From positions 24,350-88,349 of the forward strand of contig JAGVXY010000009.1 in NCBI GenBank assembly GCA_018303545.1: a stretch of 64,000 bases of DNA, read 5' to 3'. Positions 34,556 to 53,367 of this stretch are shown here, piece after piece. The stretch comes from Candidatus Woesearchaeota archaeon. GTDB taxonomy: Archaea > Nanobdellota > Nanobdellia > SCGC-AAA011-G17 > JAGVXY01. Position 1 is the first letter of the stretch; the number at the start of each line of letters is the position of its first letter. Made by a program: the position numbers and the translations under genes. The notes under the pieces were generated by a model. The model was not told the DNA's origin. It saw only the letters and a program-made list of their open reading frames with translations, and made no database searches.

Positions 34556-34615
34556 TACACATAAAGCAAATGCATTTAGATTAATAAAATATGCCTATGC
34601 AGGGATTCGAAAACC

Positions 34616-34768
34616 TTATTTGATAATTTTTTTATGCTGGGAGCTCCATATTTTATTTGGAGTCTTTTTGACCCATTCAGCATACATATCAATAAACTTC
34701 AGTCTCTCTTCAAAGTTTTGTTCTTTGGATTTTTTCAGTTTATTCAAATCTATATTTAGATTTTTCAT
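34616..34768 (-). CDS. 50-aa small partner protein of the nucleotidyltransferase-like gene (module copy A)
   Basis: Absent from the ORF track (<60 aa). Hand-translated MKNLNIDLNKLKKSKEQNFEERLKFIDMYAEWVKKTPNKIWSSQHKKIIK. ATGA overlap with the upstream gene. Homologous to 61296..61499 (LKFIDMYAEWVKK vs LEYVEFYAEKLKE). Confidence 0.45.
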   Translation of the reverse strand: MKNLNIDLNKLKKSKEQNFEERLKFIDMYAEWVKKTPNKIWSSQHKKIIK

Positions 34769-35364
34769 TTTATATATTTGTTATATTTTTCTTCTATTTT
34801 AAGCTTTCTATTGAATGAATGCATTTTTTCTAAATTCAATTTGTCTTTGAATATTCTAAACAGATATCTTGCATCTTCTATGTCTTTCTCACTGCCCAAA
34901 AATAGTTTATATGATATCTGCAATTCTAATGGAGAAATATAAGTTAAGTTGCCATTTAATATCACCTTAATTCTCGAATTCAATGCCAATTCCCCTATCC
35001 TGTCTTGGGGAAACTTAATTTCCATATTGGGTAAAAATTCGCCCTTAAATGAGAACCTTATCGCATTGTTATTCAAAAGATATTGTTCGTAGGCAGTTTT
35101 TGCATCTTCGGTATTTAAGCATTCAAATTTCTCATATAATTTTAACCACAAATCTTGAAATCTCGTAAAAGTTAATTTTTCAAATAAAAGATCAATGTCC
35201 TCCGATGATCTGCTGCGCCCGAATAATATCGCAACATAACCTGACACTACAACATATTTAATTCCCAAATCATTCAATATTGACACAAACTCTATTGCAA
35301 ATTCATCTAGGGGACTGAGTTCTTTTTTGAATGCAATCTCATTCTCTGAATAATCTAATTCCAT
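34765..35364 (-). CDS. Pol-beta-superfamily nucleotidyltransferase-like protein with helical C-terminal domain (module copy A)
   Basis: VVVSGYVAILFGRSRSSEDIDLLF (a hG[GS]x9-13DhD-type motif). Clear paralog of 61496..62098 across three blocks. Confidence 0.55.
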   Translation of the reverse strand: MELDYSENEIAFKKELSPLDEFAIEFVSILNDLGIKYVVVSGYVAILFGRSRSSEDIDLLFEKLTFTRFQDLWLKLYEKFECLNTEDAKTAYEQYLLNNNAIRFSFKGEFLPNMEIKFPQDRIGELALNSRIKVILNGNLTYISPLELQISYKLFLGSEKDIEDARYLFRIFKDKLNLEKMHSFNRKLKIEEKYNKYIK

Positions 35365-35429
35365 ACATCTTTTAATATTTCAAAAGCAATTTATAAACCT
35401 TGCGCGACCATTTGGCAAGTGAATAGAAA

Positions 35430-35513
35430 CGCCTAGGCAGGGATTCGAACCCCGAAATCCTTGCGGAAACTGGCTCTCAAGGCCAGCGCACTACCAGGTT
35501 ATGCGACCTAGGC
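35430..35513 (-). tRNA. tRNA-Ser (anticodon TGA)
   Basis: Hand-folded from the reverse complement. Acceptor GCCTAGG/CCTAGGC, anticodon stem CTGGC/GCCAG, loop CTTGAGA, long variable arm, T-arm CGGGG-TTCGAAT-CCCTG. 84 nt. Confidence 0.85.
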
Positions 35514-35542
35514 ACTAAAGTAAATCTCCTCAAATAGAATAT

Positions 35543-35809
35543 TTAAACCTTTTTATTTTCAGCTATTTTGAGTATATCCAATTCTTTCATGCCTTTTGCA
35601 ATCAATCTTTTCTTTCCTTCTTTCGCTATCATTTCAAGCTCTTTTATCAGATCTTCTTTTGAGGGAATGTTAATTTTCTTCAGTATTACACTGTCTTTGC
35701 TTCCTATTACTGCAAACACAGTTCCCTCAACCGCATTAAGCTCGCCCCTTATATCTTGGGGAATTACAATCTGCCCTTTCGATGACATTTTTACCGTTTC
35801 AATATCCAT
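35543..35809 (-). CDS. AbrB/MazE/SpoVT-type DNA-binding protein (antitoxin-like)
   Basis: SSKGQIVIPQDIRGEL swapped-hairpin motif. The likely start is the internal Met at 35809, preceded by GGAGGT 7 nt upstream. Confidence 0.65.
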   Translation of the reverse strand: MDIETVKMSSKGQIVIPQDIRGELNAVEGTVFAVIGSKDSVILKKINIPSKEDLIKELEMIAKEGKKRLIAKGMKELDILKIAENKKV

Positions 35810-35828
35810 TTTAAATACCTCCAACAAT

Positions 35829-35847
35829 CTTACTTTCTTACAGTAAG
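35829..35847. repeat. Inverted repeat cttact-N7-agtaag upstream of the AbrB-like gene (between tRNA-Ser and tnpB)
   Basis: Seen directly. Possible operator, or left-end hairpin of the TnpB element. Confidence 0.3.
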
Positions 35848-35997
35848 ACAATAGAATATTTAAAGCTTTTTATTTTAACCATTTAAGTTTAAAGAACATA
35901 ATGCCTTACAATATGCCACAGTTGAGCAACATTATTAAACAAACCACTTGACAAACGCGCACGATTGGTTTATAATATTACTTTTGCATAAATTCAT

Positions 35998-37170
35998 TTG
36001 ATGATAAAAAACTACAAGTTTAGGATTTATCCAAATAAAATGCAGAATAATGCACTGCAAACCACATTGAAACAGGTTAGATTCGTGTACAATAAGCAGC
36101 TAGAACTTAAAATTAAGATATACAAAGATGAAAGCAAAAACCTTTCACAATTTGAATTGAACGATTATTTAATCGAATTAAAGAAAAAATATCCCTTTCT
36201 TCTAAAGCTGCATTCTCAAGTTCTGCAGAATATAAATCAAAGAATCAACTTAGCATTCAAGAGTTTTTACCTCAGGGCAAAAAGAGGCGAGAAGCCAGGG
36301 TTTCCAAGATTTAAGGGCAAGAATAGATATGATTCAATAACTTATCCGCAATCTGGATTTTCATTGAATGACAAGTTATATATTTCAAAAATCGGGGAAA
36401 TAAATATAGTGAAACATAGGTATATCAAAGGAAGGATAAAGACAATGACTATAAAAAGAACTGCTACAAACAAATGGTTTGCATTTTTTACCGCAATGCA
36501 AGAAAATAAACCTAGCAAAATAATCAATAGGCAAATAGTGGGCATAGATCTCGGACTATCTCATTTTTATGCAGATAGCAGAGGGAATATCATAAATAAC
36601 CCAAGATATCTGAGAAACTCTGAGCAGAGATTAATAAAAATTCAAAGGAAACATTCAAGAAAAAGGAAAGGAGGCCATAACAGAAAAAAATCTAGATTAA
36701 AACTAGCTATAATCCATGAAAAGATCACTAACCAAAGGAATGATTTCTTGCATAAGGAATCAAGAAAATTGGCAAATGATTACTCATTCGTTGCTGTTGA
36801 AAAATTATCAATAAAAGATATGTCCAAAAACAGATACTTAGCGAAATCAATTGCAGATGTATCATGGCATAAATTTCTGCAGATGCTTGCTTACAAAGTG
36901 GAAGAAACTGGTGGCAAGCTCGTGAAAATTAATGCTCATGGAACGTCGCAGCATTGTATATGTGGCAATAAAGTAGAAAAGACGTTGGCAATAAGAACCC
37001 ATAGATGCAATAATTGCGGAGTTGAAATTGACAGAGATATTATGTCTGCAATCATTATAGAAAAACTTGCCTTTTTTGGCACTACCGCAGGAAGTGCGGA
37101 AAGTAACGCTTGGGGATATGAAAGGATGCTTTCGTCGGTGAACCAAGAACTCTCTTTGCATTCAAGTTGA
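35998..37170 (+). CDS. tnpB: IS200/IS605-family TnpB (OrfB; RuvC-like RNA-guided nuclease)
   Basis: OrfB N-terminus MIKNYKFRIYPNKMQ, RuvC-like IVGIDLG, zinc finger CICGNKVEKTLAIRTHRCNNCG. 390 aa. Confidence 0.9.
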   Translation: MMIKNYKFRIYPNKMQNNALQTTLKQVRFVYNKQLELKIKIYKDESKNLSQFELNDYLIELKKKYPFLLKLHSQVLQNINQRINLAFKSFYLRAKRGEKPGFPRFKGKNRYDSITYPQSGFSLNDKLYISKIGEINIVKHRYIKGRIKTMTIKRTATNKWFAFFTAMQENKPSKIINRQIVGIDLGLSHFYADSRGNIINNPRYLRNSEQRLIKIQRKHSRKRKGGHNRKKSRLKLAIIHEKITNQRNDFLHKESRKLANDYSFVAVEKLSIKDMSKNRYLAKSIADVSWHKFLQMLAYKVEETGGKLVKINAHGTSQHCICGNKVEKTLAIRTHRCNNCGVEIDRDIMSAIIIEKLAFFGTTAGSAESNAWGYERMLSSVNQELSLHSS

Positions 37171-37177
37171 TGGATGC

Positions 37178-37195
37178 TTCGGAGTTTGCTCCGAA
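37178..37195 (+). repeat. Subterminal hairpin ttcggag-tttg-ctccgaa immediately 3' of tnpB (IS605-type right end / candidate omega-RNA region)
   Basis: Perfect 7-bp stem, 8 nt after the tnpB stop. Confidence 0.4.
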
Positions 37196-37205
37196 TTGGG
37201 AGGCT

Positions 37206-37856
37206 TCACTTTCTCATTATTCCGAGCATATAAAGCCCAAATTTAGAAGCATCTTTTAGCAGATCATCCTCTGTCACGCCCTCAATAACCACACATCCGT
37301 TATTCTCTTGGTATATTCTTGTCTGGTTGGCTAATTTCATATACAGCACGCCAGAAGTTTCATTTACATCAGCACAAGTAATTACTGGATTATCTTTATA
37401 TTCTTCTGTCATAGCCCCAATGGTCTCTTTATTGAATAATTTTCCTGAAGACATAACCCTTGCCAATTCAATAGAAGCAAGAACAGTTTTTCCTTGAAGC
37501 CTTTCATCATGATCTATAGTTATAAAATACATATTCTTGCTTTGTATGTATTCTCTGTCTATATCTATAGGTATATCTTCAAGTTCTCTAGGCCCATATC
37601 TGAAATCAAAGTAATATGGGACATTATCTATCAAAATAGTCACTCTTGAAATATTTGTCAAATCCTCCCTTATTTCTTCAACAGGATAACTATCGAAGCC
37701 GTTATCGTAATTATACTTCCCAGTTAATTCAGAGAATGTGTTTGTATCTTTGATTAAATAGACAAAAACAGCAAAAATTACCAATATGGCAACAAGTGCT
37801 CCCATGATAATATCAATTCCCTTTTCCATTTTATTCAAAAACTGTTTCAAGAACAA
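37206..37856 (-). CDS. Membrane-anchored hypothetical protein (tandem paralog A)
   Basis: N-terminal TM. Shares ...KLANQTRIYQENNGCVVIEG... with 37831..38397 (...KFMQANESKVSFDENCLIIEG...). Confidence 0.4.
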   Translation of the reverse strand: MFLKQFLNKMEKGIDIIMGALVAILVIFAVFVYLIKDTNTFSELTGKYNYDNGFDSYPVEEIREDLTNISRVTILIDNVPYYFDFRYGPRELEDIPIDIDREYIQSKNMYFITIDHDERLQGKTVLASIELARVMSSGKLFNKETIGAMTEEYKDNPVITCADVNETSGVLYMKLANQTRIYQENNGCVVIEGVTEDDLLKDASKFGLYMLGIMRK

Positions 37857-38397
37857 ATCTTTCAGTTGGAATATTTAAATCTTCCCCTTCTATTATAAGG
37901 CAGTTTTCATCAAAGCTTACTTTAGATTCATTGGCTTGCATGAATTTAACAATAAGGATTTTATTGGTCGCATCTTTGCAGTCTTTTAATGGCAGATTCT
38001 CACACCCGCTTCCATCATTATAGCAGGCCATATTTGTTGCAGCAGGGATATACATTTTAAGATTATTTGTATATGAATATAACGCTGGACGGTAATTCAA
38101 TCCTGGTGCAACAGAAAAGTATGCTTTTTCATAGCTTGAATATTTAAATCCCTCTATGCCCACAAGAGTTATATTTTTCATCAATTCTCTAGGATCGTTC
38201 ATAAGTGTAATCAATACATCTTCATTATATCCAACCCAATTGCTGTCTACCTGAGTGAACTTATGTCCATTAAATTCAACCGTTTCATTACTCTCATCAC
38301 CAAAATAGCCAAACACACTAAAAGTCATGAGAAAAATAATTAATAACCCGAAAATTATCTGCGTTCTCTTCTTCTTTACCTTGTCTCTATCTCTCAT
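37831..38397 (-). CDS. Membrane-anchored hypothetical protein (tandem paralog B; KKKRTQ-hydrophobic N-terminus)
   Basis: See paralog A. N-terminus KKKRTQIIFGLLIIFLM. Confidence 0.4.
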   Translation of the reverse strand: MRDRDKVKKKRTQIIFGLLIIFLMTFSVFGYFGDESNETVEFNGHKFTQVDSNWVGYNEDVLITLMNDPRELMKNITLVGIEGFKYSSYEKAYFSVAPGLNYRPALYSYTNNLKMYIPAATNMACYNDGSGCENLPLKDCKDATNKILIVKFMQANESKVSFDENCLIIEGEDLNIPTERFVLETVFE

Positions 38398-38438
38398 AGT
38401 ATAATGATAAAAAAAGAAGTAAGATATAAACTTTTTGG

Positions 38439-39293
38439 TTAAGCCGTGACTTTAATTAAGGCATATCTATTCTTTTGCTCATCATGATAAGGGAATATTT
38501 CGACAACAGTTACATCTAAGTCCCCAAGCTGTTTAGTTGTGCCTAAAATCACTTTTTTGTATGAATTACCCCCATTAAAGTCAAATCCAACACCCTTTTG
38601 ATCAATATATTCTATATCTGAAATGGTAATGGTTTGATTGGCAATAGTTATTTTATCGTGAACATAAGCTAAATATTCATCTGCCTTTAAAGCAAAGGGT
38701 TCAACTTTAATCGTAACATAGCTTTCTTGTCCCACAGATGCAGTCCAGTATCTTTTCGTTATCACAATTCTTTTATTCTTAAATATTTCAGCATCATTTA
38801 CATTATTCAGCGCAAGCTCAGTTCCATCAATATCAAAAGTAGAAGTGCCATCTTTTTCGTAGCTTAGAAGTGTAAATTCCATTCCATCAAGAGTTGCTGT
38901 TTCTCCTGCTGTTTTAAAAGTATATTCATTTGTGGAGACTACCCTAATTCCTCCGTCTAAAGCTTTGCAGTCATTTGGGCAATTGCATGAATTTTCTCCA
39001 GTCTTGCAGAAGCCATCTCCGCATTTTGCGCATACAAAAGCGCCTAACAATACTTGGCAGTTTTGTTCCGGTGTTGTCGGATTTAGGCTGTCTAATCCTT
39101 CGCAGCATTCATTTCCGGGAATTACTGCTCCAATCTTTCCCTCTTCAATGCAGGGCATTTTATTTTCCGAAGTGCATAAATCTGCGCTTTCAGCTTCAGT
39201 CCCATCAGGGCATATAAAAACTTTATTCTCTTCTGCGCAGCCAGCTAAAAACAGCAGAATAACAATCAACACCAATAATCCTCTTTTCATCAT
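38439..39293 (-). CDS. Cys-rich lipobox-bearing secreted protein (paralog 1)
   Basis: Signal MMKRGLLVLIVILLFLAGC, about 14 Cys in the N-terminal 110 aa. C-terminal domain shared with 39344..40012 (ADEYLAYVHDKITI / ADEYLLFVGEKVTI; FPYHDEQKNRYALIKV / FPKHDYQKDNYAIIKI). Confidence 0.45.
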   Translation of the reverse strand: MMKRGLLVLIVILLFLAGCAEENKVFICPDGTEAESADLCTSENKMPCIEEGKIGAVIPGNECCEGLDSLNPTTPEQNCQVLLGAFVCAKCGDGFCKTGENSCNCPNDCKALDGGIRVVSTNEYTFKTAGETATLDGMEFTLLSYEKDGTSTFDIDGTELALNNVNDAEIFKNKRIVITKRYWTASVGQESYVTIKVEPFALKADEYLAYVHDKITIANQTITISDIEYIDQKGVGFDFNGGNSYKKVILGTTKQLGDLDVTVVEIFPYHDEQKNRYALIKVTA

Positions 39294-39343
39294 AAATTCA
39301 CCACCTTATTAAATAAAATAAATAAAATAATATATAAATCTTT

Positions 39344-40012
39344 TTATCCTTTGACGATTTTTATAATCGCATAGTTGTCTTTTTGATAGTCATGCTTTGG
39401 GAACGCCTGTATATTGGTTATTTTCCAGCCTGCAACCTTTGTATTTGAATTATCATCAGTTACGCCAGGCATAAGCTCGACATCTTGATTCCCATCAAAT
39501 AGCATAGACAATTTATTTTGCATATCTATTTGCTCAAGTAAAAAATTTGTTCCATCTATTGTTACCTTTTCACCGACAAATAATAGATATTCGTCTGCGC
39601 CAAGTTCAAACTTTTTGCATTCTATCAAAACATTATTTCCTTCTGGTTTAGTTTCACTATAAATGTGCTGCCGTATTTTAAGGGTCACGCCATTTACAAT
39701 CTCTAAGGTTTTTGTGCCTTGAATTGTAGTTTTCATGTCATCTACACTTACGCCAAAATTAGCATATTTATCATGAGTCAATAATTTTAATGTTTTTCCC
39801 TCGCACATTACTGAATCACCTACTTTCATTGTGAACTCTCCGCTTGTTATTGTTTGATCCACATTTTGAGTTCCTGTATCTGCTGTTTTTTCCTGTTCTT
39901 CAGGGCATTGAATCATGTCATTAACTATTGTCCCATCTGGACACACATACTTTGCTCCGCATCCGCTTAAAATAAGCACCGCGAAAACTAAAATTGCTAA
40001 AATGTATTTCAT
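39344..40012 (-). CDS. Cys-containing lipobox-bearing secreted protein (paralog 2)
   Basis: Signal MKYILAILVFAVLILSGC. Conserved C-terminal domain, see 38439..39293. Confidence 0.45.
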   Translation of the reverse strand: MKYILAILVFAVLILSGCGAKYVCPDGTIVNDMIQCPEEQEKTADTGTQNVDQTITSGEFTMKVGDSVMCEGKTLKLLTHDKYANFGVSVDDMKTTIQGTKTLEIVNGVTLKIRQHIYSETKPEGNNVLIECKKFELGADEYLLFVGEKVTIDGTNFLLEQIDMQNKLSMLFDGNQDVELMPGVTDDNSNTKVAGWKITNIQAFPKHDYQKDNYAIIKIVKG

Positions 40013-40153
40013 ATTTTAAACACCTCCAATATATTGATAGAATTAATAATAATCATTTAATTTATAAAGTTTATCTAAGAAAAAATAAAATGTTAATTTT
40101 CAATCAATAATTTCGAAGCAGAACAAGCAATATAGGATTATAGGTACATAAAT

Positions 40154-40816
40154 TCATAATTCAACACTGCCGCTTAAGATAATTCCATTAAGAATATTCT
40201 CTCTAAGATTTTTATGTATTTCGTTCCATGACCCATAGAAATTTAAGCTTATTTTTCTCTCAAGCTTTTTTTCAAAATTGACCGTATTTACTTCTTTATC
40301 TTTAATTCCAATAATAGCAATATCAATATCCGAACAAAGTTCACCTACTTCATTGGCAATTATGTCTTCTCCTCTCGAATAGCTGCCAAATAAGACTATT
40401 GAAGCGCCGGGAAACAGTTCGTATAAGTATTCGGAAAGTCCAGATTCATATATCATCCTTAGATTTTCTGATCTTTTAAGCTCTATTGCTTTTGAATTAT
40501 TTCTGTTAAGCTCGACCATTGTTAAATTAATTGTTTTTGATTTTTTTATCATAACGAGCTCATCTTTACAAAATACCGTCAAAGAATTCGAAACAGCTGT
40601 CGGAGATGCTTTTAGCAATTTTGCTAGTTCCCGCATATTCATAGGCTGTCCGACTTTCAGGCAAAGTAATCTGAAAAGTTTAGCTTGTAAGCGTGTCCAA
40701 ATAAATTTATATATATCCATTTTATTAGATACGTATCCACTAAAGTTTATATAACTTTCGGTTTTATCATAATAATCAGTTTCAATTTCAGACGCAAGGC
40801 TCATAGTAATTCTCAA
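40154..40816 (-). CDS. wHTH-fused minimal nucleotidyltransferase (second of three in the window)
   Basis: IVLFGSYSRGEDI...SDIDIAII, N-terminal wHTH, C-terminal ENILNGIILSG shared with 48722..49252. Confidence 0.7.
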   Translation of the reverse strand: MRITMSLASEIETDYYDKTESYINFSGYVSNKMDIYKFIWTRLQAKLFRLLCLKVGQPMNMRELAKLLKASPTAVSNSLTVFCKDELVMIKKSKTINLTMVELNRNNSKAIELKRSENLRMIYESGLSEYLYELFPGASIVLFGSYSRGEDIIANEVGELCSDIDIAIIGIKDKEVNTVNFEKKLERKISLNFYGSWNEIHKNLRENILNGIILSGSVEL

Positions 40817-40964
40817 GACAGTTATTAACTCAATTTAAGGGGGCTTGTAGGTTTATATGACTTCTCCAAGAAAAATCGGAAGATTTTCGATAAGTAATCA
40901 ATTAATATATCTAAGAAAAAATGAAGAACCTCGGACTAAAGTCCGAGGTATCTCGAAGATAAAA

Positions 40965-41369
40965 TTACCACGCACCTTGCGAAGATGAGATGTAGTGCTT
41001 GATGGTTTCTGTGGTCACGTTTCCAACGCTTCTGAAGAATTTGCCTGAACTCCAAAAATGTCCTCTTCTGAAGTGTCTCCTCAGCCAAGGATGCTGCTTA
41101 AAAATTCTGTAAGCAGAATATCCTTTGAATAATTGCAGCGCCTTGGAAACGCTTATTGTGTGTGGAACTTCGACAAAGATATGTATGTGGTCCGGCTGTA
41201 CGATGAGTTCATACACCTCAAATTTGTGCTTTGCAGCAACTTCCCGAAGGACTTGCTCGCAAAGATCCCTAAGTTTTGCGAATTTGAACGGATCTTTGGC
41301 ATATTTTGGCTTCCATACAAAGTGAAATGCATTCTGTCCCGCTGCGTGTCTAAATCTATTTATTTCCAT
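40965..41369 (-). CDS. tnpA: IS200/IS605-family Y1 (HUH) transposase TnpA
   Basis: HUH motif HIHIFVEVP, catalytic Tyr region GYSAYRIF, 134 aa. Confidence 0.9.
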   Translation of the reverse strand: MEINRFRHAAGQNAFHFVWKPKYAKDPFKFAKLRDLCEQVLREVAAKHKFEVYELIVQPDHIHIFVEVPHTISVSKALQLFKGYSAYRIFKQHPWLRRHFRRGHFWSSGKFFRSVGNVTTETIKHYISSSQGAW

Positions 41370-41477
41370 TTTATTCTCCTGCGCAAAGCTTAAGAATACA
41401 GCACACTACTTACTAAATGGATTACGTGAGTGCGCCGATTCCGTTGCGCACTCTTATTTTTATTTTAAAAATTTAAG

Positions 41478-41589
41478 AAGATTTAGTTTACCCTGCGCTA
41501 AAGCGCAAGGTATTCTTACAATGTAATAAAAAAAAGATTTAGTTTACCCTGCGCTAAAGCGCAAGGTATTCTTACAATGTAATAAAAAA
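41478..41589. repeat. Perfect tandem direct repeat, 2 x 56 bp, each containing an imperfect palindrome ccctgcgc-taaa-gcgcaagg
   Basis: Seen directly. agatttagtttaccctgcgctaaagcgcaaggtattcttacaatgtaataaaaaaa occurs twice. Confidence 0.8.
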
Positions 41590-41611
41590 AATAAAAAAAT
41601 ATTAGTTAGGT

Positions 41612-43642
41612 TTAACTAACTGATATGTCGCTATTCGAAGTTCCGCTGATCTTAGCTTCTGCTTTATCAACAGTCATCAAGTAGGTTTCATACTCAGCAA
41701 CAGCTTTGCAAGCTCTTCTTGTATCAGCTGCACTTGTACCAGCAACAAGCATTGCTACATTGTCACCGTTCTCAACCAACTTTACCATTGCTTCACCAGA
41801 TGCTAGTTCCCAGCCATCACAAGTCACACCGAATAGACTTGCTGATAGTGCGTTTGCACATGGACCACCTATAGCTACGATGTTATAGGAAGCCGGACTT
41901 GAAACTTCACTTGCTAGCTTTGACACTGGACTGATAGACGTAGGTACATATGATGAACCTCCGCTTGTCACAACAGCGCTTGGGCCTTTAACGACGATGT
42001 TCGCATAGACTTGGTCAGATGGGATCATTAATGAAACCTCATCACTTGCACCATGGCTCTTAGGATTCAATATCTTGATTCCATAAGCGTTTCTATGGTC
42101 TTCATCTTTTGTACCAATGCTAGTTGTACCACTTACCAACTCGCTTGCTTCTTCAGTATCCTTTGCAGGACCTAATGAAGTAACATCGGCAGTAGTATTC
42201 TGCATTTTTCCCACATATTTTATTTTATGTGGTGAGTCCTTATCCTTGTAGAAGATAGCTGGAGTGCTATTCATATCTACTCCGAATTGAACCATCGTAG
42301 TGTACGCTATCCAAACTTCTTTAGTCTTTACATCACTGGTTACATTTTGGTCCCCAAGTATGTTTGCACCATGCACAGTAAGTCCTTCGTCTAATGGAGT
42401 ACTTATGTGGATAGTTGACATGCTGGTATTTGTTCCGCCAGATCCCCATGCATCACTCAAGTCTGTATTTGTCTCAAGCTCGATTGTCAATGCCTTATAC
42501 TGATCATCTGGAACAGACAATGAGTCTAAGCAAACTGATGCAAAGCTGTTTGGCATACTGATGCATTCTCCAACCTTTTTAGGGCTATCCGAATAGTCAT
42601 CAAAGTAGTTGTCGTTCTGCACACCTAGGATTTGACCTGTGCTTACAGCAAATATATTTGCAATACTCCATACCCAGTCAGGATCATCTTGGTCTTCACC
42701 AATAAATGCGTCCCCGCTGTCGTATGTTTCAGCAGATTGTGTACCGACTACTAAATTAGCCGATGACTCGCCAGCATTAGACTTTGCGATTACACTGTCA
42801 ACAGTGATCTCTAGTCCATTTACTGTGTTTGTAGTGGCTGTGTTAATGACTTTTGTGACGCCATCAACGCTCACTGAAACACTTGCTGAGCCAACAGATA
42901 ACAACTTTACTTCTTTGCCGTTAACTGTTACTGTCTCGCCTTCAGTTAGGTAATACTCTTCACCAACATAAGCAGTCAACGTAGTTCCGGTTGACGCTAC
43001 ATTTGTGATTTTCAAAGTCTTTCCTAAGAACTTGATTTCAGCTGGTTGTGCGGTTGTTGATGCGTTTAAACTTATCGCTTCATCAAACACATAGTAATAA
43101 TTTATTACTTTTCTAGCTGGTAGCTCGAAGTATATGTCCGACTTGTAGTCATCATCGCTGCTTGTCAACGAAGTTTGAGGTAAAGGACCGCCTGTGAAGT
43201 TTAACTTCTCAGATGTGTCATATACAGCGCCTTGGAATGTTATTTCTCCATCGAAGAAACCTTCCAAATCATCGTCCTGCAGTTCAGCATCAAACTTGTT
43301 TACACCGGATGTTATGTTCCATCCTAATGCGATTTTATTAGTCTTACCACCTGTAACAGAAACAGTTGTTCCGCCAGATGTGACTTTTGTCTTTGCTAGG
43401 TATTGCATATTTGCTGTGATCAGGCTCAGACCTAATGTGTCTGCAGCATCTGCTTTATCACCTACAACAAATACGTTTTTGCTATTGTAGACACCATTTG
43501 TGTCAACGAATGGAGCTGGATACTCGCTTAGCTTCAATGCCATAGCGCCAGTCAATGTTGCACCCAACATTGCCATTCCTGTACCAACAGCAGCAACTAC
43601 CTTCATAGCTTTCTTAGCTTTTAGTACATACTTTTCATGCAT
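41612..43642 (-). CDS. S-layer protein, Methanococcus-type (S_layer_N / S_layer_C-like)
   Basis: Signal peptide, then LKLSEYPAPFVDTNGVYNSKNVFVVGDKADAADTLGLSLI (N-terminal S-layer motif), and C-terminal YNIVAIGGPCANALSASLFGVTCDGWEL. SD GGAGGTG 9 nt upstream. Confidence 0.7.
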   Translation of the reverse strand: MHEKYVLKAKKAMKVVAAVGTGMAMLGATLTGAMALKLSEYPAPFVDTNGVYNSKNVFVVGDKADAADTLGLSLITANMQYLAKTKVTSGGTTVSVTGGKTNKIALGWNITSGVNKFDAELQDDDLEGFFDGEITFQGAVYDTSEKLNFTGGPLPQTSLTSSDDDYKSDIYFELPARKVINYYYVFDEAISLNASTTAQPAEIKFLGKTLKITNVASTGTTLTAYVGEEYYLTEGETVTVNGKEVKLLSVGSASVSVSVDGVTKVINTATTNTVNGLEITVDSVIAKSNAGESSANLVVGTQSAETYDSGDAFIGEDQDDPDWVWSIANIFAVSTGQILGVQNDNYFDDYSDSPKKVGECISMPNSFASVCLDSLSVPDDQYKALTIELETNTDLSDAWGSGGTNTSMSTIHISTPLDEGLTVHGANILGDQNVTSDVKTKEVWIAYTTMVQFGVDMNSTPAIFYKDKDSPHKIKYVGKMQNTTADVTSLGPAKDTEEASELVSGTTSIGTKDEDHRNAYGIKILNPKSHGASDEVSLMIPSDQVYANIVVKGPSAVVTSGGSSYVPTSISPVSKLASEVSSPASYNIVAIGGPCANALSASLFGVTCDGWELASGEAMVKLVENGDNVAMLVAGTSAADTRRACKAVAEYETYLMTVDKAEAKISGTSNSDISVS

Positions 43643-43927: not shown

Positions 43928-44386
43928 TTAGTATGAAGTAGTATTACTGCAGAATTTAATATTAACAAAGAAAGTTCCTTCTGGTCCAGTAGAAATTGGT
44001 GTGTCATAAGTGATTCCATACTTGCAGGGATCATTAATTTTAACAATAGACTGATTATTCAACAGGTAATTAAAATAGTAAGGCTTATCCCACCCAAGAG
44101 AATTCATTATTTTAGGCACTTCTTCTTTCACAAGTTCACAAGCATCCTTTCCGCAGACATCCAAATTTAAATAACAATCTTCTAAAATCTTTTTCATATC
44201 AGATTCACCACAAGGAGTATATTTGCCTATAGCATTAACTAAATTAGCTCCAAACAATTTATACCTTGCATTGTCAATATTCGAACTTTGAGGAGTTAAA
44301 CGAAACATTAGAAACACAACAGCAATTATCACAATAAGTATTACAATTATTACCATCCCCACAATTTCAATCTGTGCTCGCCTCAT
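43928..44386 (-). CDS. Pilin-like protein with class III signal peptide (MRRAQ|IEIV...)
   Basis: The likely start is the internal Met at 44386. The n-region RRA precedes Q and a long hydrophobic stretch with early Glu. Confidence 0.4.
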   Translation of the reverse strand: MRRAQIEIVGMVIIVILIVIIAVVFLMFRLTPQSSNIDNARYKLFGANLVNAIGKYTPCGESDMKKILEDCYLNLDVCGKDACELVKEEVPKIMNSLGWDKPYYFNYLLNNQSIVKINDPCKYGITYDTPISTGPEGTFFVNIKFCSNTTSY

Positions 44387-44608
44387 AAATAATATAATAA
44401 TCCAGACATTAATAAAGCTTATTGCCATTTTTTTAGAATTTTAATAAGACTGAATGGCTCAGATTATTTTTCAATTTCATTGTCTAAACGGAGTCAATTA
44501 GAAGATTATTGACAAAACAACTACCTCTTTCCGAAAGGCATATTAATCTTACCCCTACATTTTAAAAAAAAGAAAAGATTTAAATATTTGTAGGGATAAG
44601 GGATATTC

Positions 44609-45502
44609 ATGGTGAGCGTAAAGAAAAGGATTATAGGAAACAGGGAATATTACTATTTGGAGCACTCTTTCAGAGAAGGGAGCCTCATAAAAAAGAAAGA
44701 GCTGTACTTAGGTGCAAAAGTTCCAGGAAATATTGAAAATATAAAGAAAAGCTTTATCGATGAAATCGACAGAGAAAAATGGTACAAGGTTCTTGACTAT
44801 ATTAAACAGGAATTTTCTAAAGAAGCAAATGCAACTCCTGCCTCAGATAAGCTTAAAGAGATGGAATCATTCATGATTAAATTCACCTATGACACTCAGA
44901 GGATAGAGGGATCAAAGCTGACATTGAGAGAAACCGCAAATCTTCTTGATAAGGGAATAGGTCCAAAAGAAAAGCCAGTAAGGGACGCAAAAGAAGCCGA
45001 GGCTCATAAAAAAGTATTTTATGAGATGCTGAATTGCAAGAAAAATCTAACTATGAGTCTAATTTTGCATTGGCACAGGGAATTATTCATCAGTACCAAG
45101 CAAGATATTGCTGGCAAGATTCGTGCTCATGGTGTATCAATCTCTGGCAGTAGATTCACTCCTCCTTTTCCCTCAGAGATAAACTCGTTATTGGATGAAT
45201 TTTTCAGATGGTATAATAATAGCAAGTATAAGATGCACCCAGTTGAATTATCTGCGATGGTTCATTTAAAATTTGTTACTATACACCCTTTTGGTGATGG
45301 AAATGGGAGAATTTCTCGGCTTATGATGAATTTTATACTGCATAAATTCAATTATCCCCTTCTCGATATCACTTATGAAAACAGAGCCAGTTATTATAAT
45401 GCACTTGAAAGATCGCAGAGAAAAAATAATGAACGCATATTTGCCCAATGGTTCATTAAAAGGTATATAAAAGAAAATAAGAAATATTTGAAATCATATT
45501 AA
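44609..45502 (+). CDS. Fic family protein (class II, auto-inhibited adenylyltransferase-like)
   Basis: Fic motif HPFGDGNGRISR, with the inhibitory motif TQRIEG ([S/T]xxxE[G/N]) N-terminal to it. Confidence 0.85.
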   Translation: MVSVKKRIIGNREYYYLEHSFREGSLIKKKELYLGAKVPGNIENIKKSFIDEIDREKWYKVLDYIKQEFSKEANATPASDKLKEMESFMIKFTYDTQRIEGSKLTLRETANLLDKGIGPKEKPVRDAKEAEAHKKVFYEMLNCKKNLTMSLILHWHRELFISTKQDIAGKIRAHGVSISGSRFTPPFPSEINSLLDEFFRWYNNSKYKMHPVELSAMVHLKFVTIHPFGDGNGRISRLMMNFILHKFNYPLLDITYENRASYYNALERSQRKNNERIFAQWFIKRYIKENKKYLKSY

Positions 45503-45527
45503 CTTGCAGGAGATTCAATATCTTTTT

Positions 45528-46052
45528 TCATTCTGTTGAATAGACCTCCAGTTTTCCTATATAATACGTATCCTCAGAAGGTAAATATAATGATAAAGGT
45601 GTCGAGACAACGGTCGTAGTTTTCTTGCCTTCATCATAAAGAGTATACACTCCGCAATTATCCGGCCATTCCATTTTATTTACCATTTTTGCATCACATT
45701 CTACATCACTTTGTATAGGGTAAACCATCCTCACAACAACTTTGAACCCGGTAAATAAAGGCATATATTTTGATTTCTCCTTCATTACTTTCTCTTTGAA
45801 TGCAAATAATTTAAGCATATCAACGCAATTATCTGGACTCTCATATTTGCTGCACACAATCTCAGGCATTGAAGGCACAAAAGCCAATAAAACTGTTCTC
45901 TCAGTATTGGCGAATTCATCTTGTGTTTCTTCTATGCTTGTATGCTGCGCAGTAAAATAAAGATAAATTCCTAAAAATAGTAATACAAAGAAGACTACCA
46001 AAACAGAAATAGTTTCCATCATCTGAATCTGCCCTTTAGAAAAGCGGAACAC
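45528..46052 (-). CDS. Pilin-like protein with class III signal peptide (FSKG|QIQMMETISVLVVFF)
   Basis: KG-Q cleavage-type motif, Glu at +5, long hydrophobic helix. Third gene of a tight operon. Confidence 0.5.
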   Translation of the reverse strand: MFRFSKGQIQMMETISVLVVFFVLLFLGIYLYFTAQHTSIEETQDEFANTERTVLLAFVPSMPEIVCSKYESPDNCVDMLKLFAFKEKVMKEKSKYMPLFTGFKVVVRMVYPIQSDVECDAKMVNKMEWPDNCGVYTLYDEGKKTTTVVSTPLSLYLPSEDTYYIGKLEVYSTE

Positions 46053-46965
46053 AGCCAGACCCCCTTAAATTTGAATTTTCATCAGCTAAATTTTGTCTGA
46101 AATTCTCAAAACCCGAAGCAGAATTAGATTTATAGAACAGCCCTAAGGTTCTGCTCATCAAAGCATATCCGCAGTTTGGATCCTGCACTTTCTGTGATAA
46201 AAAATTAGATTTCCTTATGTAAATATCAGAAACTAGCTGCAGTTGTTCTAAGGCCTTGTCTTTCATGCAGTCATAGTTTCCTTTAGAATCCGACATTATC
46301 GCTCCAAGCATCATCTCATAGCCTATATAATATGAGCTCCCGTCATTAAAAGTTACAATTCCTGATTCCTTGCCGTCAATTTCAATAATCTCCCCATACT
46401 GCCTCAATGTATTATCCACAGGTTTATTGATAAAAACAAATTTTAATATTTTAGATGATTTCTCCGCATTTAAAATATTTTTAGAAGGCGTTGAAAAATT
46501 TAAGAAATCGATAAATGTTTTCTCATCACCAGAAATAAGTTCTAACTTAGTTTCATCATCAGCTATTACATAAATTTTATTTTTAGAATCTTTCAGATAA
46601 AATATATTCGCAATCCAAAAAGGATATTCCCAGCGCTTGCTCCATATGAAAAGTTTATTCCCTTGCATTTCTCTAGGCCCGAAAATTATTAAATTTACAG
46701 TCTGCGGATTCATATCCTCAACAGTTAATTTATTGCAGTTAAGATAAACATTTGAAGTTCTTGGCAAGTCTATTGTATCTTTTTGATTGTTAGCGTACCC
46801 CATTGCCAAAACTTTGTCATAAAGCATATTCTGAATTTGAAAGGAAACTTTTGCTCCCCCAAGATCAATCATCCCCGAAGCAAAGAAGATAAAAAACGCA
46901 AGTATCACCACACCGACGATAGAGACAAAAATCCAGGTCAGTGAATTTTCTATCTGCCCTTTCAT
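46036..46965 (-). CDS. Pilin-like protein with class III signal peptide (MKG|QIENSLTWIFVSIVGVV)
   Basis: KG-Q motif. ATGA overlap with the upstream gene. 309 aa. Confidence 0.5.
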   Translation of the reverse strand: MKGQIENSLTWIFVSIVGVVILAFFIFFASGMIDLGGAKVSFQIQNMLYDKVLAMGYANNQKDTIDLPRTSNVYLNCNKLTVEDMNPQTVNLIIFGPREMQGNKLFIWSKRWEYPFWIANIFYLKDSKNKIYVIADDETKLELISGDEKTFIDFLNFSTPSKNILNAEKSSKILKFVFINKPVDNTLRQYGEIIEIDGKESGIVTFNDGSSYYIGYEMMLGAIMSDSKGNYDCMKDKALEQLQLVSDIYIRKSNFLSQKVQDPNCGYALMSRTLGLFYKSNSASGFENFRQNLADENSNLRGSGCVPLF

Positions 46966-47444
46966 GGTGATTTTACTTCCACTATTGCACCCTTAGATTC
47001 CAAATCGTAACTCTTGCCATTTTCAAAGCATAATGGGTTAATAGCTTCATTATTTCTTAAATTAGAAACAGCAAACATAAGATCACAATCCTCTGTTTCC
47101 ATAGGCAGATAATACACATTCTTTCTTCCGTTTTGTATTACTGTTTTATATTCTTGCACAAGGTAATGGTTGTTATTTATTGGATTTTCAGAATTATAGA
47201 AGCATATCATATTCACTTTAGATGTTAATGAAGTCTTATAGCCTTGTCTTGATCCAGTATCCATTCTAAGCATTGATTTGACATCATTGTCTAATTTATT
47301 GTTGAAATCCTGTATTTTTACGCATTCGGCAAACTGCAGATATTTTACTATCTGTGATCCGCCCCATAAAAGAATCATCCCCGCAACAATAATTGCAAAG
47401 ATATACACCAACGGCATTCCAAGAAGCTGTCCTCTTTTTTTCAT
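46962..47444 (-). CDS. Pilin-like protein with class III signal peptide (MKKRG|QLLGMPLVYIFAIIV)
   Basis: KRG-Q motif. First gene of the three-gene operon. Confidence 0.5.
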   Translation of the reverse strand: MKKRGQLLGMPLVYIFAIIVAGMILLWGGSQIVKYLQFAECVKIQDFNNKLDNDVKSMLRMDTGSRQGYKTSLTSKVNMICFYNSENPINNNHYLVQEYKTVIQNGRKNVYYLPMETEDCDLMFAVSNLRNNEAINPLCFENGKSYDLESKGAIVEVKSP

Positions 47445-47763: not shown

Positions 47764-48303
47764 TTAATGCATTAATAAATAGTTTTTCTTGTATTTTGCG
47801 CCGAACTTCAAAAATAAATCTTCAAACAATTTTTCATTTTCAGCAGGCATGAAGAATACCTGCCGCGTCAGCCACTCGCCGTTGTATCGTTCCACCAAAG
47901 AATCTTTTCCCCTCAGGATATTAACTAGCCTTACTTTATCGCTTGCAGAAAGCCCATTCAGTTCATAAAAGAACATTAGTTTTGCGGAAAATTTAAAAAC
48001 TTCTGAAAAAGGCTTATTATGCCTCAGGCTGTACCCTTCTCTAAGCAGAGTATTTATGAGGGAAACTGGTTTGATAAAAAAATCATTAATCGAAATGATG
48101 CTTATATGCGCGCCCTCCAGCTCAATTTTGATTTCTTTTTTGCATATTACTGCGGCATCTATATCATCAGGGTTTATTTTTCCCTTTGCAGCAGATCCAA
48201 ATATTACAACATCAAGTACTGATTCATTTTTCAGAATATTTTTCAGGTCATTTATTAATGGAGTTTTTAAGTTCATATGCATATTTCCTCGCTTCAGCAA
48301 CAT
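47764..48303 (-). CDS. Minimal nucleotidyltransferase (MNT) domain protein
   Basis: VVIFGSAAKGKINPDDIDAAVI. Overlaps the upstream HEPN gene by 56 bp. Confidence 0.75.
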   Translation of the reverse strand: MLLKRGNMHMNLKTPLINDLKNILKNESVLDVVIFGSAAKGKINPDDIDAAVICKKEIKIELEGAHISIISINDFFIKPVSLINTLLREGYSLRHNKPFSEVFKFSAKLMFFYELNGLSASDKVRLVNILRGKDSLVERYNGEWLTRQVFFMPAENEKLFEDLFLKFGAKYKKNYLLMH

Positions 48304-48721: not shown

Positions 48722-49252
48722 ATGTATAAAAAAATAGATGCAAAAAATCAGGTTTTGAAGGTATTGTTTGAAAATCCAACTTACAGATACCATATTCGAG
48801 AGTTAGCCTCCGTTTCTAGACTAAATCCTAATACCATAATAAATGTTGCCATTTTGTTAGAAAAAGAAAATTTAATCCAAATTATCAAAAAAAAGCATGT
48901 AACAGAAATATATGCCAATCTAGAAAGCAAGGAATTCATAAGAAAAAAGAGATTGTTCAATATTGCTCAGCTTTATGATTCAGGACTGGTTGATTTTATT
49001 GATAGTAAATATTTTCCTAAGGTTATCAGTGTTATTGGCAGTTACAGTTCAGGAGAAGATATTGAAAAAAGTGATATTGATCTAATTGTTATAAATAATA
49101 CAGATAAAAAAATTATTGATCTTTCGCAGTTTGAGAAGAAATTATCAAGAAATATTCATTTAATCTTGACAGACTACCGAAATATTTCCGAAGAATTCTA
49201 CGCAAGTTTGATAAACGGGGTTATTCTTTCAGGTTTTCTTGATAAAAGGTGA
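48722..49252 (+). CDS. wHTH-fused minimal nucleotidyltransferase (third of three)
   Basis: ISVIGSYSSGEDIEKSDIDLIVI, N-terminal wHTH, C-terminal SLINGVILSG. Confidence 0.75.
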   Translation: MYKKIDAKNQVLKVLFENPTYRYHIRELASVSRLNPNTIINVAILLEKENLIQIIKKKHVTEIYANLESKEFIRKKRLFNIAQLYDSGLVDFIDSKYFPKVISVIGSYSSGEDIEKSDIDLIVINNTDKKIIDLSQFEKKLSRNIHLILTDYRNISEEFYASLINGVILSGFLDKR

Positions 49253-52381: not shown

Positions 52382-52523
52382 TAAATTCGCTCGAACGCAT
52401 ATTAATTTCAGATGAAAATAGGGTGCACCTTAATAAAGTTTTGTATTTATGTTGACTTTACACTAATAACAATAATTTAATACTAAAAATAACCCCTCTA
52501 AAAGAACAAATAAAAAAATAAAT

Positions 52524-53258: not shown

Positions 53259-53367
53259 GGGGTTGGATATTAAGTCCTATTTAAATACTTTATGGTAGTT
53301 ACAATCAGTAATTCAGGTTTAAGGCAGAAATGAAGTTATCCATAGTTAAAAACTAAATTAAAAAAAT

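What the first reader, a model, noticed from the sequence alone, without database searches (positions are those of the whole stretch)
37206..40012. Two tandem paralog pairs of exported proteins between the two IS elements
The first pair is 37206-38397. These are two membrane-anchored proteins of 188 and 216 aa, with N-termini resembling class III signal peptides. They share a C-terminal block (K/F)(L/M)(A/Q)(N/A)...(N/D)(G/E)NC(V/L)(V/I)IEG. The second pair is 38439-40012. These are two lipobox-bearing (LAGC, LSGC) proteins with a Cys-rich N-terminal region and a shared C-terminal domain. The whole four-gene block is on one strand, bracketed by TnpB on one side and the wHTH-MNT and IS200 on the other. 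This suggests a mobile or recently duplicated surface-protein cassette.
Basis: seen in the sequence. Interest (0 to 1): 0.5.

Follow-up and report, generated by a model that had tools for sequence, protein, structure and literature searches.

The report
S-layer-linked membrane and lipoprotein gene pairs
The four genes are the tail end of a conserved surface-layer gene cluster of a tiny DPANN archaeon, not a mobile cassette, and two of them belong to a widespread, unnamed family pair that almost always follows the S-layer gene and may anchor that layer to the membrane.

Summary
All four ORFs exist on the minus strand.

**B pair (B1 39344-40012, B2 38439-39293).** They are clear paralogs (BLASTP E=1e-17, 24% identity). 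Both have canonical lipoboxes. Each carries two ~80-aa beta repeats that match a conserved central domain of the adjacent S-layer protein (hhalign E=9e-6). The family is rare.

**A pair (A1 37831-38397, A2 37206-37829).** Pairwise similarity is weak (E=0.005). Each gene nevertheless belongs to a large family absent from Pfam and NCBIfam, and the two family profiles match at E=6e-33. They are therefore ancient paralogs.
- In every other genome where both genes were visible, an A1-like gene is directly followed by an A2-like gene.
- In 7 of 9 informative genomes the pair lies just downstream of the S-layer gene.
- Class III signal peptides are not supported. These look like N-in signal anchors.

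**IS elements.** The IS200 and TnpB elements look like separate insertions. Nothing indicates mobility or recent duplication.

**Inference.** A1-A2 are S-layer-associated membrane proteins, possibly its anchor. B1 and B2 are lineage-specific lipid-anchored S-layer-like proteins.

The parts
39344..40012 (-). B1, a 222-aa lipoprotein. Signal peptide with lipobox LILSG|C, then a YVCPDGT...C module, a short linker, and two ~80-aa beta repeats.
   Evidence: ORF. Lipobox. Paralog of B2. Repeats and S-layer-domain match. AF2 model is all-beta, pLDDT 71. Exact match to hypothetical protein J4468_01010 of a Candidatus Woesearchaeota archaeon.
38439..39293 (-). B2, a 284-aa lipoprotein. Lipobox LFLAG|C, an FICPDGT...C module, an extra Cys-rich insert (residues ~40-110, including CGDGFCKTGENSCNCPNDC), then the same two beta repeats.
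   Evidence: (Cys positions).
37831..38397 (-). A1, a 188-aa single-pass membrane protein. It has a strongly basic N-tail, a TM helix with a conserved IM..S motif, and an ectodomain with four invariant Cys.
   Evidence: Family of 50 or more members with C125/C132/C140/C166 invariant. N-tail mean net charge +4.1 across the family. Homologous to the A2 family.
37206..37829 (-). A2, a 207-aa single-pass membrane protein. TTG-extended readings of 214 or 216 aa run up to 37856. TM helix at residues 3-28, a beta-meander, then an alpha/beta domain with an invariant Cys pair. The start lies one base after the A1 stop.
41612..43642 (-). S-layer protein, 676 aa, with a Sec signal peptide and no TM anchor. 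Its N- and C-terminal segments form the 9FSA-type anchor domain. Its central domain (residues ~227-296) is related to the B repeats.
   Evidence: Pfam S_layer_C E=6.7e-10. The 3-sequence profile hits 9fsa_A at E=3.3e-4. Matches to B.
40154..40816 (-). Winged-HTH plus nucleotidyltransferase protein. Homologs are recurring neighbours of the A1-A2 pair in other genomes, so it is not IS cargo.
   Evidence: Pfam NTP_transf_2 and MarR-like HTH. Homologs near the pair in L010 and L013.
40930..41600 (-). IS200-type element: tnpA at 40965-41369 with hairpin ends. The left-end hairpin unit is tandemly duplicated (56 nt x2, 41475-41586). It is inserted between the S-layer gene and the downstream genes.
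   Evidence: Y1_Tnp 6.6e-30. Repeat D1. Sequence. L001 has a single copy of the 56-nt unit.
35998..37205 (+). TnpB-only IS200/IS605-family element with a 3' hairpin. It occupies the position downstream of A2 where five other genomes have an MTS-type methyltransferase gene.
   Evidence: NF040570 8e-84. Sequence. Contexts.
43928..47444 (-). Four genes for proteins with class III (prepilin-like) signals: 46962-47444, 46036-46965, 45528-46052 and 43928-44428. They lie upstream of the S-layer gene and are conserved in the same order in L013, L014 and L026. A Fic gene on the + strand (44609-45502) interrupts them here.
38424..38430 (-). TATA-like box TTTATAT about 30 nt upstream of the A1 ATG. Similar boxes lie at 40061-40068 (B1) and 39331-39338 (B2), and B1 and B2 also have GGAGGTG / AAGGTGGTG ribosome-binding sites. 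Inferred separate promoters for B1, B2 and A1-A2.
   Evidence: Read directly from the sequence. Not tested further.

Best explanation
The block is the downstream part of a conserved cell-envelope gene cluster of a Woesearchaeota-type DPANN archaeon. The cluster runs: four prepilin-like genes, the S-layer gene, then A1 and A2.

**Shown**
- A1 and A2 are ancient paralogs from two widespread families absent from Pfam and NCBIfam.
- They are single-pass membrane proteins with disulfide-containing ectodomains. From the basic N-tail, the N-terminus is predicted to face the cytoplasm and the C-terminal domain to face outwards.
- They are encoded as a tightly coupled A1-then-A2 pair that usually directly follows the S-layer gene.
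- B1 and B2 are lipobox lipoproteins. Each carries two copies of a beta domain related to a conserved central domain of the S-layer protein.
- The B family is rare and occurs elsewhere as single genes.

**Inferred**
- A1 and A2 form a membrane-embedded heterodimer sitting at the membrane surface.
- This heterodimer binds the membrane-proximal, dimerising anchor domain of the S-layer protein, which has no TM segment of its own. It would tether or organise the lattice, as an accessory anchor encoded in the same operon.
- B1 and B2 are lineage-specific, lipid-anchored S-layer-like proteins of the space under or within the lattice.
- The IS200 element and the TnpB element are independent later insertions. 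The 3.2 kb now separating the S-layer gene from A1 (IS200, wHTH-nucleotidyltransferase, B1, B2) is a local expansion of the cluster.
For: - **Homology of A1 and A2:** hhalign of the two family alignments gives probability 99.9%, E=6e-33.
- **Family size:** 597 hits at E<=1e-3 in an exhaustive search. Of the 150 best listed, 96 group with A2 and 51 with A1.
- **No curated family:** no consistent Pfam or NCBIfam match for the members.
- **Pair adjacency:** an A1-like gene directly followed by an A2-like gene in L010, L013, L022, L024, L025, L026/27, L028 and L029. Spacing is -4 to +2 nt in all but L025.
- **S-layer gene directly upstream on the same strand:** window, L013, L014, L024, L025, L026/27 and L028, which is 7 of 9 informative genomes. 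L025 was retrieved through the S-layer protein, not through A.
- **Upstream prepilin-like genes are syntenic**.
- **Topology:** basic N-tail and an invariant Cys pattern.
- **The window's own S-layer protein has that domain:** (E=3.3e-4).
- **It has no TM segment:** sequences.
- **B pair:**. B repeats against the S-layer central domain give E=8.9e-6 and 0.002.
- **Lipoproteins are common in DPANN:** PMC12462473.
- **Accessory-protein anchoring is a recognised archaeal mode:** preprint 10.1101/2024.05.28.596244.
Against: - **Physical interaction is untested.**
- **Fold resemblance to 9FSA is not specific.**
  - Foldseek finds nothing significant, and 9fsa is not in its top 50.
  - Profile-profile comparisons of the A families with S-layer C-termini are not significant, E 0.012-0.5.
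- **Linkage is not universal.** Two genomes (L010, L022) have the pair away from any S-layer gene in the sequence available.
- **There is a second recurrent neighbour.** A cytoplasmic MTS-type methyltransferase follows the pair in five genomes and has no obvious envelope role.
- **The B1 model is mediocre** (pLDDT 71). The B-to-S-layer domain match has only 83% hhalign probability.
Confidence: 0.5

Rival explanations
1. One reading: the four genes form a mobile or recently duplicated surface-protein cassette carried between two IS elements.
For: TnpB and IS200 TnpA do bracket the block. The B family is rare and patchy. B1, B2 and the wHTH-nucleotidyltransferase lie where other genomes have 0-2 unrelated small genes.
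Against: - The A1-A2 position downstream of the S-layer gene is conserved in genomes without IS elements.
- No direct or inverted repeats flank the block.
- tnpA and tnpB are different genes in opposite orientation. From general knowledge, IS200/IS605 elements move as single-strand units and are not known to form composite transposons.
- Identity within the pairs is low (24-28% for B, about 20% for A).
- GC content matches the surroundings.
- The arrangement is identical in all population contigs.
- There are no plasmid or viral relatives.
Confidence: 0.04
2. A1 and A2 are general envelope or housekeeping membrane proteins. Examples would be an assembly, folding or secretion factor for exported proteins, or a partner of the downstream methyltransferase or glycosyltransferase. 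On this view their linkage to the S-layer gene reflects co-regulation of envelope genes rather than physical anchoring.
For: - The pair also occurs next to a radical SAM gene (L010) or SpoIIM (L022) with no S-layer gene nearby.
- An MTS methyltransferase follows the pair in L010, L024, L026, L028 and L029.
- The ectodomain fold is a generic flavodoxin-like alpha/beta sandwich, also seen in carbohydrate-enzyme accessory domains.
- No significant sequence link to the S-layer anchor domain.
Against: - In 7 of 9 genomes the S-layer gene is immediately upstream on the same strand, 73-225 nt away in four of them.
- The single best structural match in the PDB is the S-layer anchor domain.
- The S-layer protein has no membrane anchor of its own.
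Confidence: 0.3
3. A1 and A2 are pilin-like subunits with class III signals. They would be processed by a prepilin peptidase and assembled with the four prepilin-like proteins encoded upstream of the S-layer gene into a pilus or pseudopilus.
For: The N-termini look superficially like class III signals (KRT|QIIF and MEKG|IDII). Four genuine KRG|Q-type genes lie in the same cluster.
Against: - The cleavage motif is absent from the families: 1 of 48 and 2 of 90 members have it.
- A1 lacks G/A at position -1.
- The A2 model is a globular alpha/beta domain on a TM helix rather than a pilin fold.
- No pilin or archaellin Pfam match.
Confidence: 0.06
4. B1 and B2 are adhesins or host-interaction proteins of an ectosymbiotic DPANN cell, or miniature relatives of class II fusogens, rather than S-layer-related structural proteins.
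For: - The family is rare and fast-evolving.
- The same lipobox-CPDG leader module precedes varied adhesin-like domains in other DPANN lipoproteins (L018, L021).
Against: - B1 has only about 170 ectodomain residues and no equivalents of fusogen domains II and III or of a fusion loop.
- The model is of modest quality (pLDDT 71).
- The sequence-profile link is to the S-layer protein next door.
Confidence: 0.1

Closest known systems
SlaB of Sulfolobales (membrane-anchored partner of the S-layer protein SlaA, encoded next to slaA)
   Same: An accessory protein with a TM anchor, encoded directly downstream of the S-layer gene, proposed to tether a lattice protein that has no anchor of its own. The gene order and TM anchor were shown here. 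The role is inferred.
   Different: No sequence or fold relationship was found. A1 and A2 are N-terminally anchored, compact alpha/beta ectodomains with no long stalk, and they come as a paralogous pair. The description of SlaB rests on my own knowledge and on the title of PMC10903991, not on a test here.
Dimeric anchor domain of Methanococcales-type S-layer proteins (PDB 9FSA; Pfam S_layer_C PF05124)
   Different: In S-layer proteins the domain is split between the N- and C-termini. In A1 and A2 it is contiguous, preceded by a TM helix and a beta-meander. There is no significant sequence similarity (E 0.012-0.5), no Pfam hit and no Foldseek support.
FlaF/FlaG (ArlF/ArlG) of the archaellum
   Same: By analogy only. 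FlaF is a monotopic membrane protein that binds the S-layer protein (PMC4425475, listed). That FlaF and FlaG are adjacent paralogs with uncleaved, pilin-like N-termini is from my own knowledge.
   Different: FlaF is a beta-sandwich and belongs to the archaellin-like families. A1 and A2 have no such Pfam match and a different predicted fold. No archaellum genes lie nearby.
Archaeal lipobox lipoproteins (AliA/AliB-dependent)
   Same: B1 and B2 have canonical lipoboxes. Such proteins are reported as prevalent in DPANN (PMC12462473).
   Different: Lipidation and the presence of AliA/AliB in this genome were not tested. The mature domains have no curated family.
MSTP-like / DUF1608 beta-sandwich domains of methanogen and DPANN S-layer proteins
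   Different: B1 and B2 are small lipid-anchored proteins with two repeats rather than lattice-forming tiles. The hhalign probability is only 83% and the model is of moderate confidence.

Membership tests
Archaeal class III (prepilin-like) signal peptide proteins | [KR][GA] cleavage motif immediately before the hydrophobic stretch (FlaFind-style pattern) | tested here: not met
   A1 reads KRT|QII, with T at -1. A2 reads MEKG|IDI, with D at +2. The motif is present in only 1 of 48 A1-family and 2 of 90 A2-family members. Other window proteins do carry KRG|Q.
Archaeal class III (prepilin-like) signal peptide proteins | Cleavage by a prepilin peptidase (PibD/FlaK/EppA) | not testable with these tools
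   Needs N-terminal sequencing or proteomics.
Lipobox lipoproteins (B1, B2) | Basic n-region, hydrophobic h-region, then [LVI][ASTVI][GAS]C | tested here: met
   MKYILAILVFAVLILSG|C and MMKRGLLVLIVILLFLAG|C. Weak NCBIfam hits to lipoprotein signal models. The orthologue P0071 has IVS|C.
Lipobox lipoproteins (B1, B2) | Lipid modification of the Cys by the archaeal machinery (AliA/AliB) | not tested
   The literature reports the machinery in DPANN, with some gaps. This genome was not searched for it.
Composite transposon / mobile cassette | Flanking copies of one IS, or terminal repeats able to mobilise the interval | tested here: not met
   No flanking repeats. One side has tnpB only, on the + strand. 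The other has tnpA only, on the - strand.
Composite transposon / mobile cassette | Variable presence, a different locus in relatives, or foreign composition | tested here: not met
   Same arrangement in all population contigs. A1-A2 is syntenic with the S-layer gene in IS-free genomes. GC content is typical. No viral or plasmid hits.
S_layer_C / 9FSA anchor domain (for the A1/A2 ectodomain) | Significant sequence-profile match to the domain | tested here: not met
   No Pfam S_layer_C hit among 146 members. hhalign against S-layer C-termini gives E 0.012-0.5. Profiles against PDB sequences find nothing.
S_layer_C / 9FSA anchor domain (for the A1/A2 ectodomain) | The same three-dimensional fold | tested here: inconclusive
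Accessory S-layer membrane anchor (SlaB-like role) | Encoded with the S-layer gene and carrying a TM anchor | tested here: met
   S-layer gene directly upstream in 7 of 9 informative genomes. One N-terminal TM helix per protein.
Accessory S-layer membrane anchor (SlaB-like role) | Physical binding to the S-layer protein | not testable with these tools
No multimer tool was available.
S-layer central beta-sandwich domain (for the B repeats) | Profile similarity to the conserved S-layer domain | tested here: inconclusive
Class II fusion proteins / fusexins (for B1) | Three-domain ectodomain of about 400 aa with a fusion loop and a C-terminal TM segment | tested here: not met
   Only about 77 residues align, and only to domain I. 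The B1 ectodomain is about 170 aa, lipid-anchored at the N-terminus, with no C-terminal TM segment.

The most novel reading that the evidence does not exclude
A1 and A2 define a widespread two-gene module of DPANN archaea that is absent from Pfam and NCBIfam and that acts as the membrane anchor of S_layer_C-type S-layers. On this reading, a TM-tethered heterodimer has ectodomains that are stand-alone copies of the S-layer protein's own dimerising anchor domain. It would capture that domain by heterotypic pairing. This would explain how lattice proteins with no TM helix or lipid anchor are held on the cell.
Probability: 0.2. Interest if true: 0.65.

Novelty: new variant of a known kind. Interest (0 to 1): 0.45.

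Why it matters
How S-layers are held on the membrane is unresolved for archaea whose S-layer proteins lack a TM helix or lipid anchor. The S-layer proteins compared here end without one. The dimeric anchor domain was itself described only recently, for Methanococcus and Thermococcales proteins (PMC11410804).

A conserved, tightly coupled pair of membrane proteins encoded right after the S-layer gene gives a concrete, testable candidate for the missing anchor or assembly factor. DPANN cell surfaces also mediate their symbiotic life.

For annotation, two large families absent from Pfam and NCBIfam could be named and linked to the envelope. The result also shows that bracketing by IS elements need not mean mobility.

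Tried and rejected
- **Word-index homology searches.** Searches with B1 and A1 found only the proteins themselves. The merged-family profile search returned just 11 proteins.
- **Linking the A families to the S-layer anchor domain by sequence.** All attempts were non-significant. These were: hhalign against the single S-layer protein; against 3-sequence and 7-sequence C-terminal alignments; and against a 9FSA-style N+C construct.
- **Other structure and profile searches.**
  - Foldseek against the PDB gave nothing significant.
  - The afdb50 library was unavailable.
  - PDB sequence searches with the A profiles were empty.
- **dN/dS on population contigs.** Impossible, because the contigs are 99.6-100% identical.
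- **Readings rejected.**
  - Composite transposon: rejected for lack of flanking repeats.
  - Class III signals: rejected.
  - Fusogen reading of B1: rejected on size and domain content.
  - Toxin-antitoxin 'MNT' reading of the wHTH-nucleotidyltransferase: set aside, because homologs recur next to the pair in IS-free genomes.
Full report
**1. Naming**

All four genes are on the minus strand and are transcribed in the order B1, B2, A1, A2.

| Gene | Coordinates | Length |
|---|---|---|
| B1 | 39344-40012 | 222 aa |
| B2 | 38439-39293 | 284 aa |
| A1 | 37831-38397 | 188 aa |
| A2 | 37206-37829 | 207 aa (the ORF lister extends it to a TTG at 37856, 216 aa) |

B1 is an exact match to a hypothetical protein of a Candidatus Woesearchaeota archaeon. 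The window is therefore from a DPANN archaeon with about 34% GC.

**2. The observation**

*B pair*
- The pair is a real paralog pair: BLASTP E=1e-17, 24% identity over 216 aa. The Smith-Waterman score is 180 against 35+/-6 for shuffles.
- Both proteins start with a basic and hydrophobic signal ending in a canonical lipobox: LILSG|C and LFLAG|C.
- A shared [FY][VI]CPDGT-x11-C module follows the lipobox.
- Only B2 has the Cys-rich insert (13 Cys).

*A pair*
- Pairwise similarity is marginal: E=0.005 over 37 residues. Seven of 2000 shuffles reach the ectodomain score.
- The shared pieces are colinear. They are a PREL motif and a C-x26/27-C...IEG block.

*A2 start*
- Sister contigs call A2 from the ATG one base after the A1 stop.
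- Homologs start at the equivalent point.

**3. The A genes are not orphans**

I ran an exhaustive phmmer search with the four mature sequences concatenated.
- It gave 597 hits at E<=1e-3.
- Of the 150 best, 96 group with A2 (best 8.6e-40) and 51 with A1 (best 6.5e-20).
- Only one hit besides B1 and B2 themselves is B-like (P0071).

Family alignments show the following.
- The A1 family has four invariant Cys.
- The A2 family has an invariant Pro and Cys pair.
- The two profiles match with hhalign probability 99.9%, E=6e-33 over 174 columns.

A1 and A2 are therefore homologous along their whole length, but the duplication is ancient. Neither Pfam nor NCBIfam gives a consistent match to any of the 146 members.

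**4. Genomic context in other genomes**

*Pair adjacency.* An A1-like gene is directly followed by an A2-like gene in L010, L013, L022, L024, L025, L026/27, L028 and L029. The spacing is between a 4-nt overlap and a 2-nt gap in all but L025. In L014 only the A1-like gene was seen.

*S-layer gene upstream.* An S_layer_C-type S-layer gene lies immediately upstream on the same strand as follows.

| Locus | Arrangement |
|---|---|
| L024 | 85 nt upstream |
| L026/27 | 80 nt upstream |
| L028 | 73 nt upstream |
| L025 | 225 nt upstream; this locus was found through the S-layer protein, not through A |
| L013 | one small gene in between |
| L014 | two small genes in between |
| Window | 3.2 kb in between |

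That is 7 of 9 informative genomes. L010 (radical SAM upstream) and L022 (SpoIIM upstream) are the exceptions.

*Other recurrent neighbours*
- Upstream of the S-layer gene, L013, L014 and L026 carry four genes with KG|/RG|Q class III signals. These are homologs, in the same order, of window genes 46962-47444, 46036-46965, 45528-46052 and 43928-44428.
- An MTS-type methyltransferase follows the pair in five genomes. In the window, TnpB sits at that position.
- Homologs of the wHTH-nucleotidyltransferase (40154-40816) recur near the pair in L010 and L013.

*Gene orders*
- The ancestral order is: four prepilin-like genes, S-layer gene, A1, A2, then the methyltransferase.
- The window shows that order with several additions:
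  - a Fic gene;
  - an IS200 element;
  - a TnpB element;
  - the segment wHTH-nucleotidyltransferase-B1-B2.

**5. Mobility**
- No direct or inverted repeats flank the block.
- The IS200 element has its own hairpin ends, one tandemly duplicated. TnpB has its own 3' hairpin.
- The two IS genes are different components in opposite orientation.
- All contigs carrying B1 are 99.6-100% identical to the window and share the arrangement.
- Composition is ordinary.
- There are no plasmid or viral relatives.

The mobile or recently duplicated cassette reading is not supported.

**6. Signals**
- The class III reading of A1 and A2 fails at the family level. Only 1 of 48 and 2 of 90 members have a FlaFind-style motif at the TM start.
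- The A1 N-tail is strongly basic, with mean net charge +4.1. The TM helix carries a conserved IM..S motif.
- This fits an uncleaved N-in/C-out signal anchor.
- The lipoboxes of B1 and B2 are canonical. Lipoproteins are reported to be prevalent in DPANN (PMC12462473).

**7. Structure of A2**
- With the 96-sequence alignment, AlphaFold2 gives pLDDT 95.1 and pTM 0.86. The model has a TM helix at 3-28, a four-stranded meander at 38-76, then an alpha/beta domain.
- The SymProFold paper shows that this domain forms the two-fold dimer of the anchor (PMC11410804).
- The window's S-layer protein has the same domain. Pfam S_layer_C spans its N- and C-termini. A 3-sequence profile hits 9fsa_A at E=3.3e-4.
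- The S-layer proteins compared here end without a TM segment.

Cautions:
- Foldseek finds nothing significant.
- Profile-profile comparisons between the A families and S-layer C-termini give E 0.012-0.5, although always in the same motif register.

I treat the resemblance as a lead, not as membership.

**8. The B proteins**
- The region after the linker consists of two tandem ~80-aa repeats. In the relative on L017 the two halves score 81 against 32+/-6 for shuffles. In B1 itself the signal is weaker: 16 of 1000 shuffles reach the score.
- A profile of four B-family domains matches the conserved central domain of a seven-member S-layer alignment, at window residues ~227-296. Repeat 1 gives E=8.9e-6 (probability 83%) and repeat 2 gives E=0.002. 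Weaker single-sequence signals were seen earlier.
- A preprint assigns MSTP-like beta-sandwiches to DPANN S-layer proteins.
- B relatives elsewhere (P0071 on L016, and L017) are single genes in unrelated contexts.
- The lipobox-CPDG leader alone precedes other domains in other DPANN lipoproteins on L018 and L021.

**9. Mechanism**

*Shown*
- Gene order and its conservation.
- Homology relations.
- Topology signals.
- The fold prediction.

*Inferred*
- A1 and A2 are made in equal amounts from a coupled message.
- They pair through their TM helices and ectodomains at the membrane surface.
- They bind the membrane-proximal dimeric anchor domain of the S-layer protein, tethering or nucleating the lattice.
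- B1 and B2 are lipid-anchored proteins built from S-layer-type domains that sit beneath or within the lattice in this lineage.

I put about 0.85 on 'conserved S-layer-linked module with secondary IS insertions'. I put about 0.4 on 'anchor or assembly partner of the S-layer'.

**10. Novelty and score**

Accessory S-layer anchors are a known kind; SlaB is one, and 'co-expressed accessory proteins' are mentioned. This family pair has no match in Pfam or NCBIfam, and I found no sequence or fold link to SlaB. It would be a new variant if the inference holds. The finding as originally framed is ordinary. The follow-up gives a testable candidate for an open question, hence an interest score of 0.45.

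Noticed in passing
window 34593-35449 (repeats at 34593-34611 and 35431-35449): A 19-nt direct repeat copies the 3' end of tRNA-Ser(tga) (35429-35514, -). It brackets an 818-bp segment holding a 199-aa gene and a 50-aa DUF8150 gene. Sister contigs L003 and L004 lack exactly 34612-35428. This looks like a small tRNA-integrated element or its excision.
   Followed up: partly
window 41475-41586: A 56-nt unit containing the hairpin CCCTGCGCTAAAGCGCAAGG, at the IS200 end upstream of tnpA, is tandemly duplicated. Contig L001 has a single copy.
   Followed up: partly
window 42205-42791 versus L001 1-579: Part of the S-layer gene is only 84.5% identical between two contigs of the same population, while the flanking DNA is 100% identical. 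This suggests strain-level hypervariability or recombination in the exposed part of the S-layer protein.
   Followed up: no
window 43928-47444: Four genes with class III (prepilin-like) signals lie upstream of the S-layer gene. They are conserved in the same order in L013, L014 and L026. A Fic-domain gene on the opposite strand (44609-45502) is inserted among them here.
   Followed up: partly
window 47764-48303, 48722-49252 and 40154-40816: There are several nucleotidyltransferase or wHTH-nucleotidyltransferase genes within 9 kb. Homologs of the 40154-40816 copy recur next to the A1-A2 pair in other genomes, which argues against a simple toxin-antitoxin cargo reading.
   Followed up: partly
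L018 4137-4853; L021 7836-8825; L016 1329-2069; L017 1151-1936: The module [FY][VI]CPDG[TS]-x-V-x5-6-C, followed by an acidic or Pro-rich linker, prefixes unrelated surface domains in Woesearchaeota and other archaeal MAGs. It follows a lipobox Cys in L016, L018 and L021. In L017 the N-terminus looks like a TM anchor instead. It may be a common leader module of DPANN surface proteins.
   Followed up: partly
window 49337-61089: A run of very large putative surface proteins lies here: 1014 aa with beta-helix/NosD and Big domains, 1246 aa with no family, and 1019 aa with a Big_13 domain. A 257-aa protein with a canonical class III signal (MEMGKRG|Q, 57105-57878) lies between them.
   Followed up: no
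C-termini of S-layer proteins: window 41612-41700; L024, L026, L028: After the anchor domain, several S-layer proteins share a short tail of the form V-K-G-T-S-x-x-D-I-x-V-E. It could be a docking strand or a processing signal.
   Followed up: no
window 35533-35559 and 35850-35876: A 27-nt direct repeat (96% identical) flanks the 102-aa AbrB/MazE-like gene at 35543-35851.
   Followed up: no
L013 4025-6715: The S-layer gene of this MAG is called as two ORFs of 221 and 645 aa. This may be a frameshift, an assembly error or a genuine split.
   Followed up: no
window 63117-63791: A further lipobox protein (MKWGFMIILIFLLISG|C, 224 aa) with no Pfam family.
   Followed up: no
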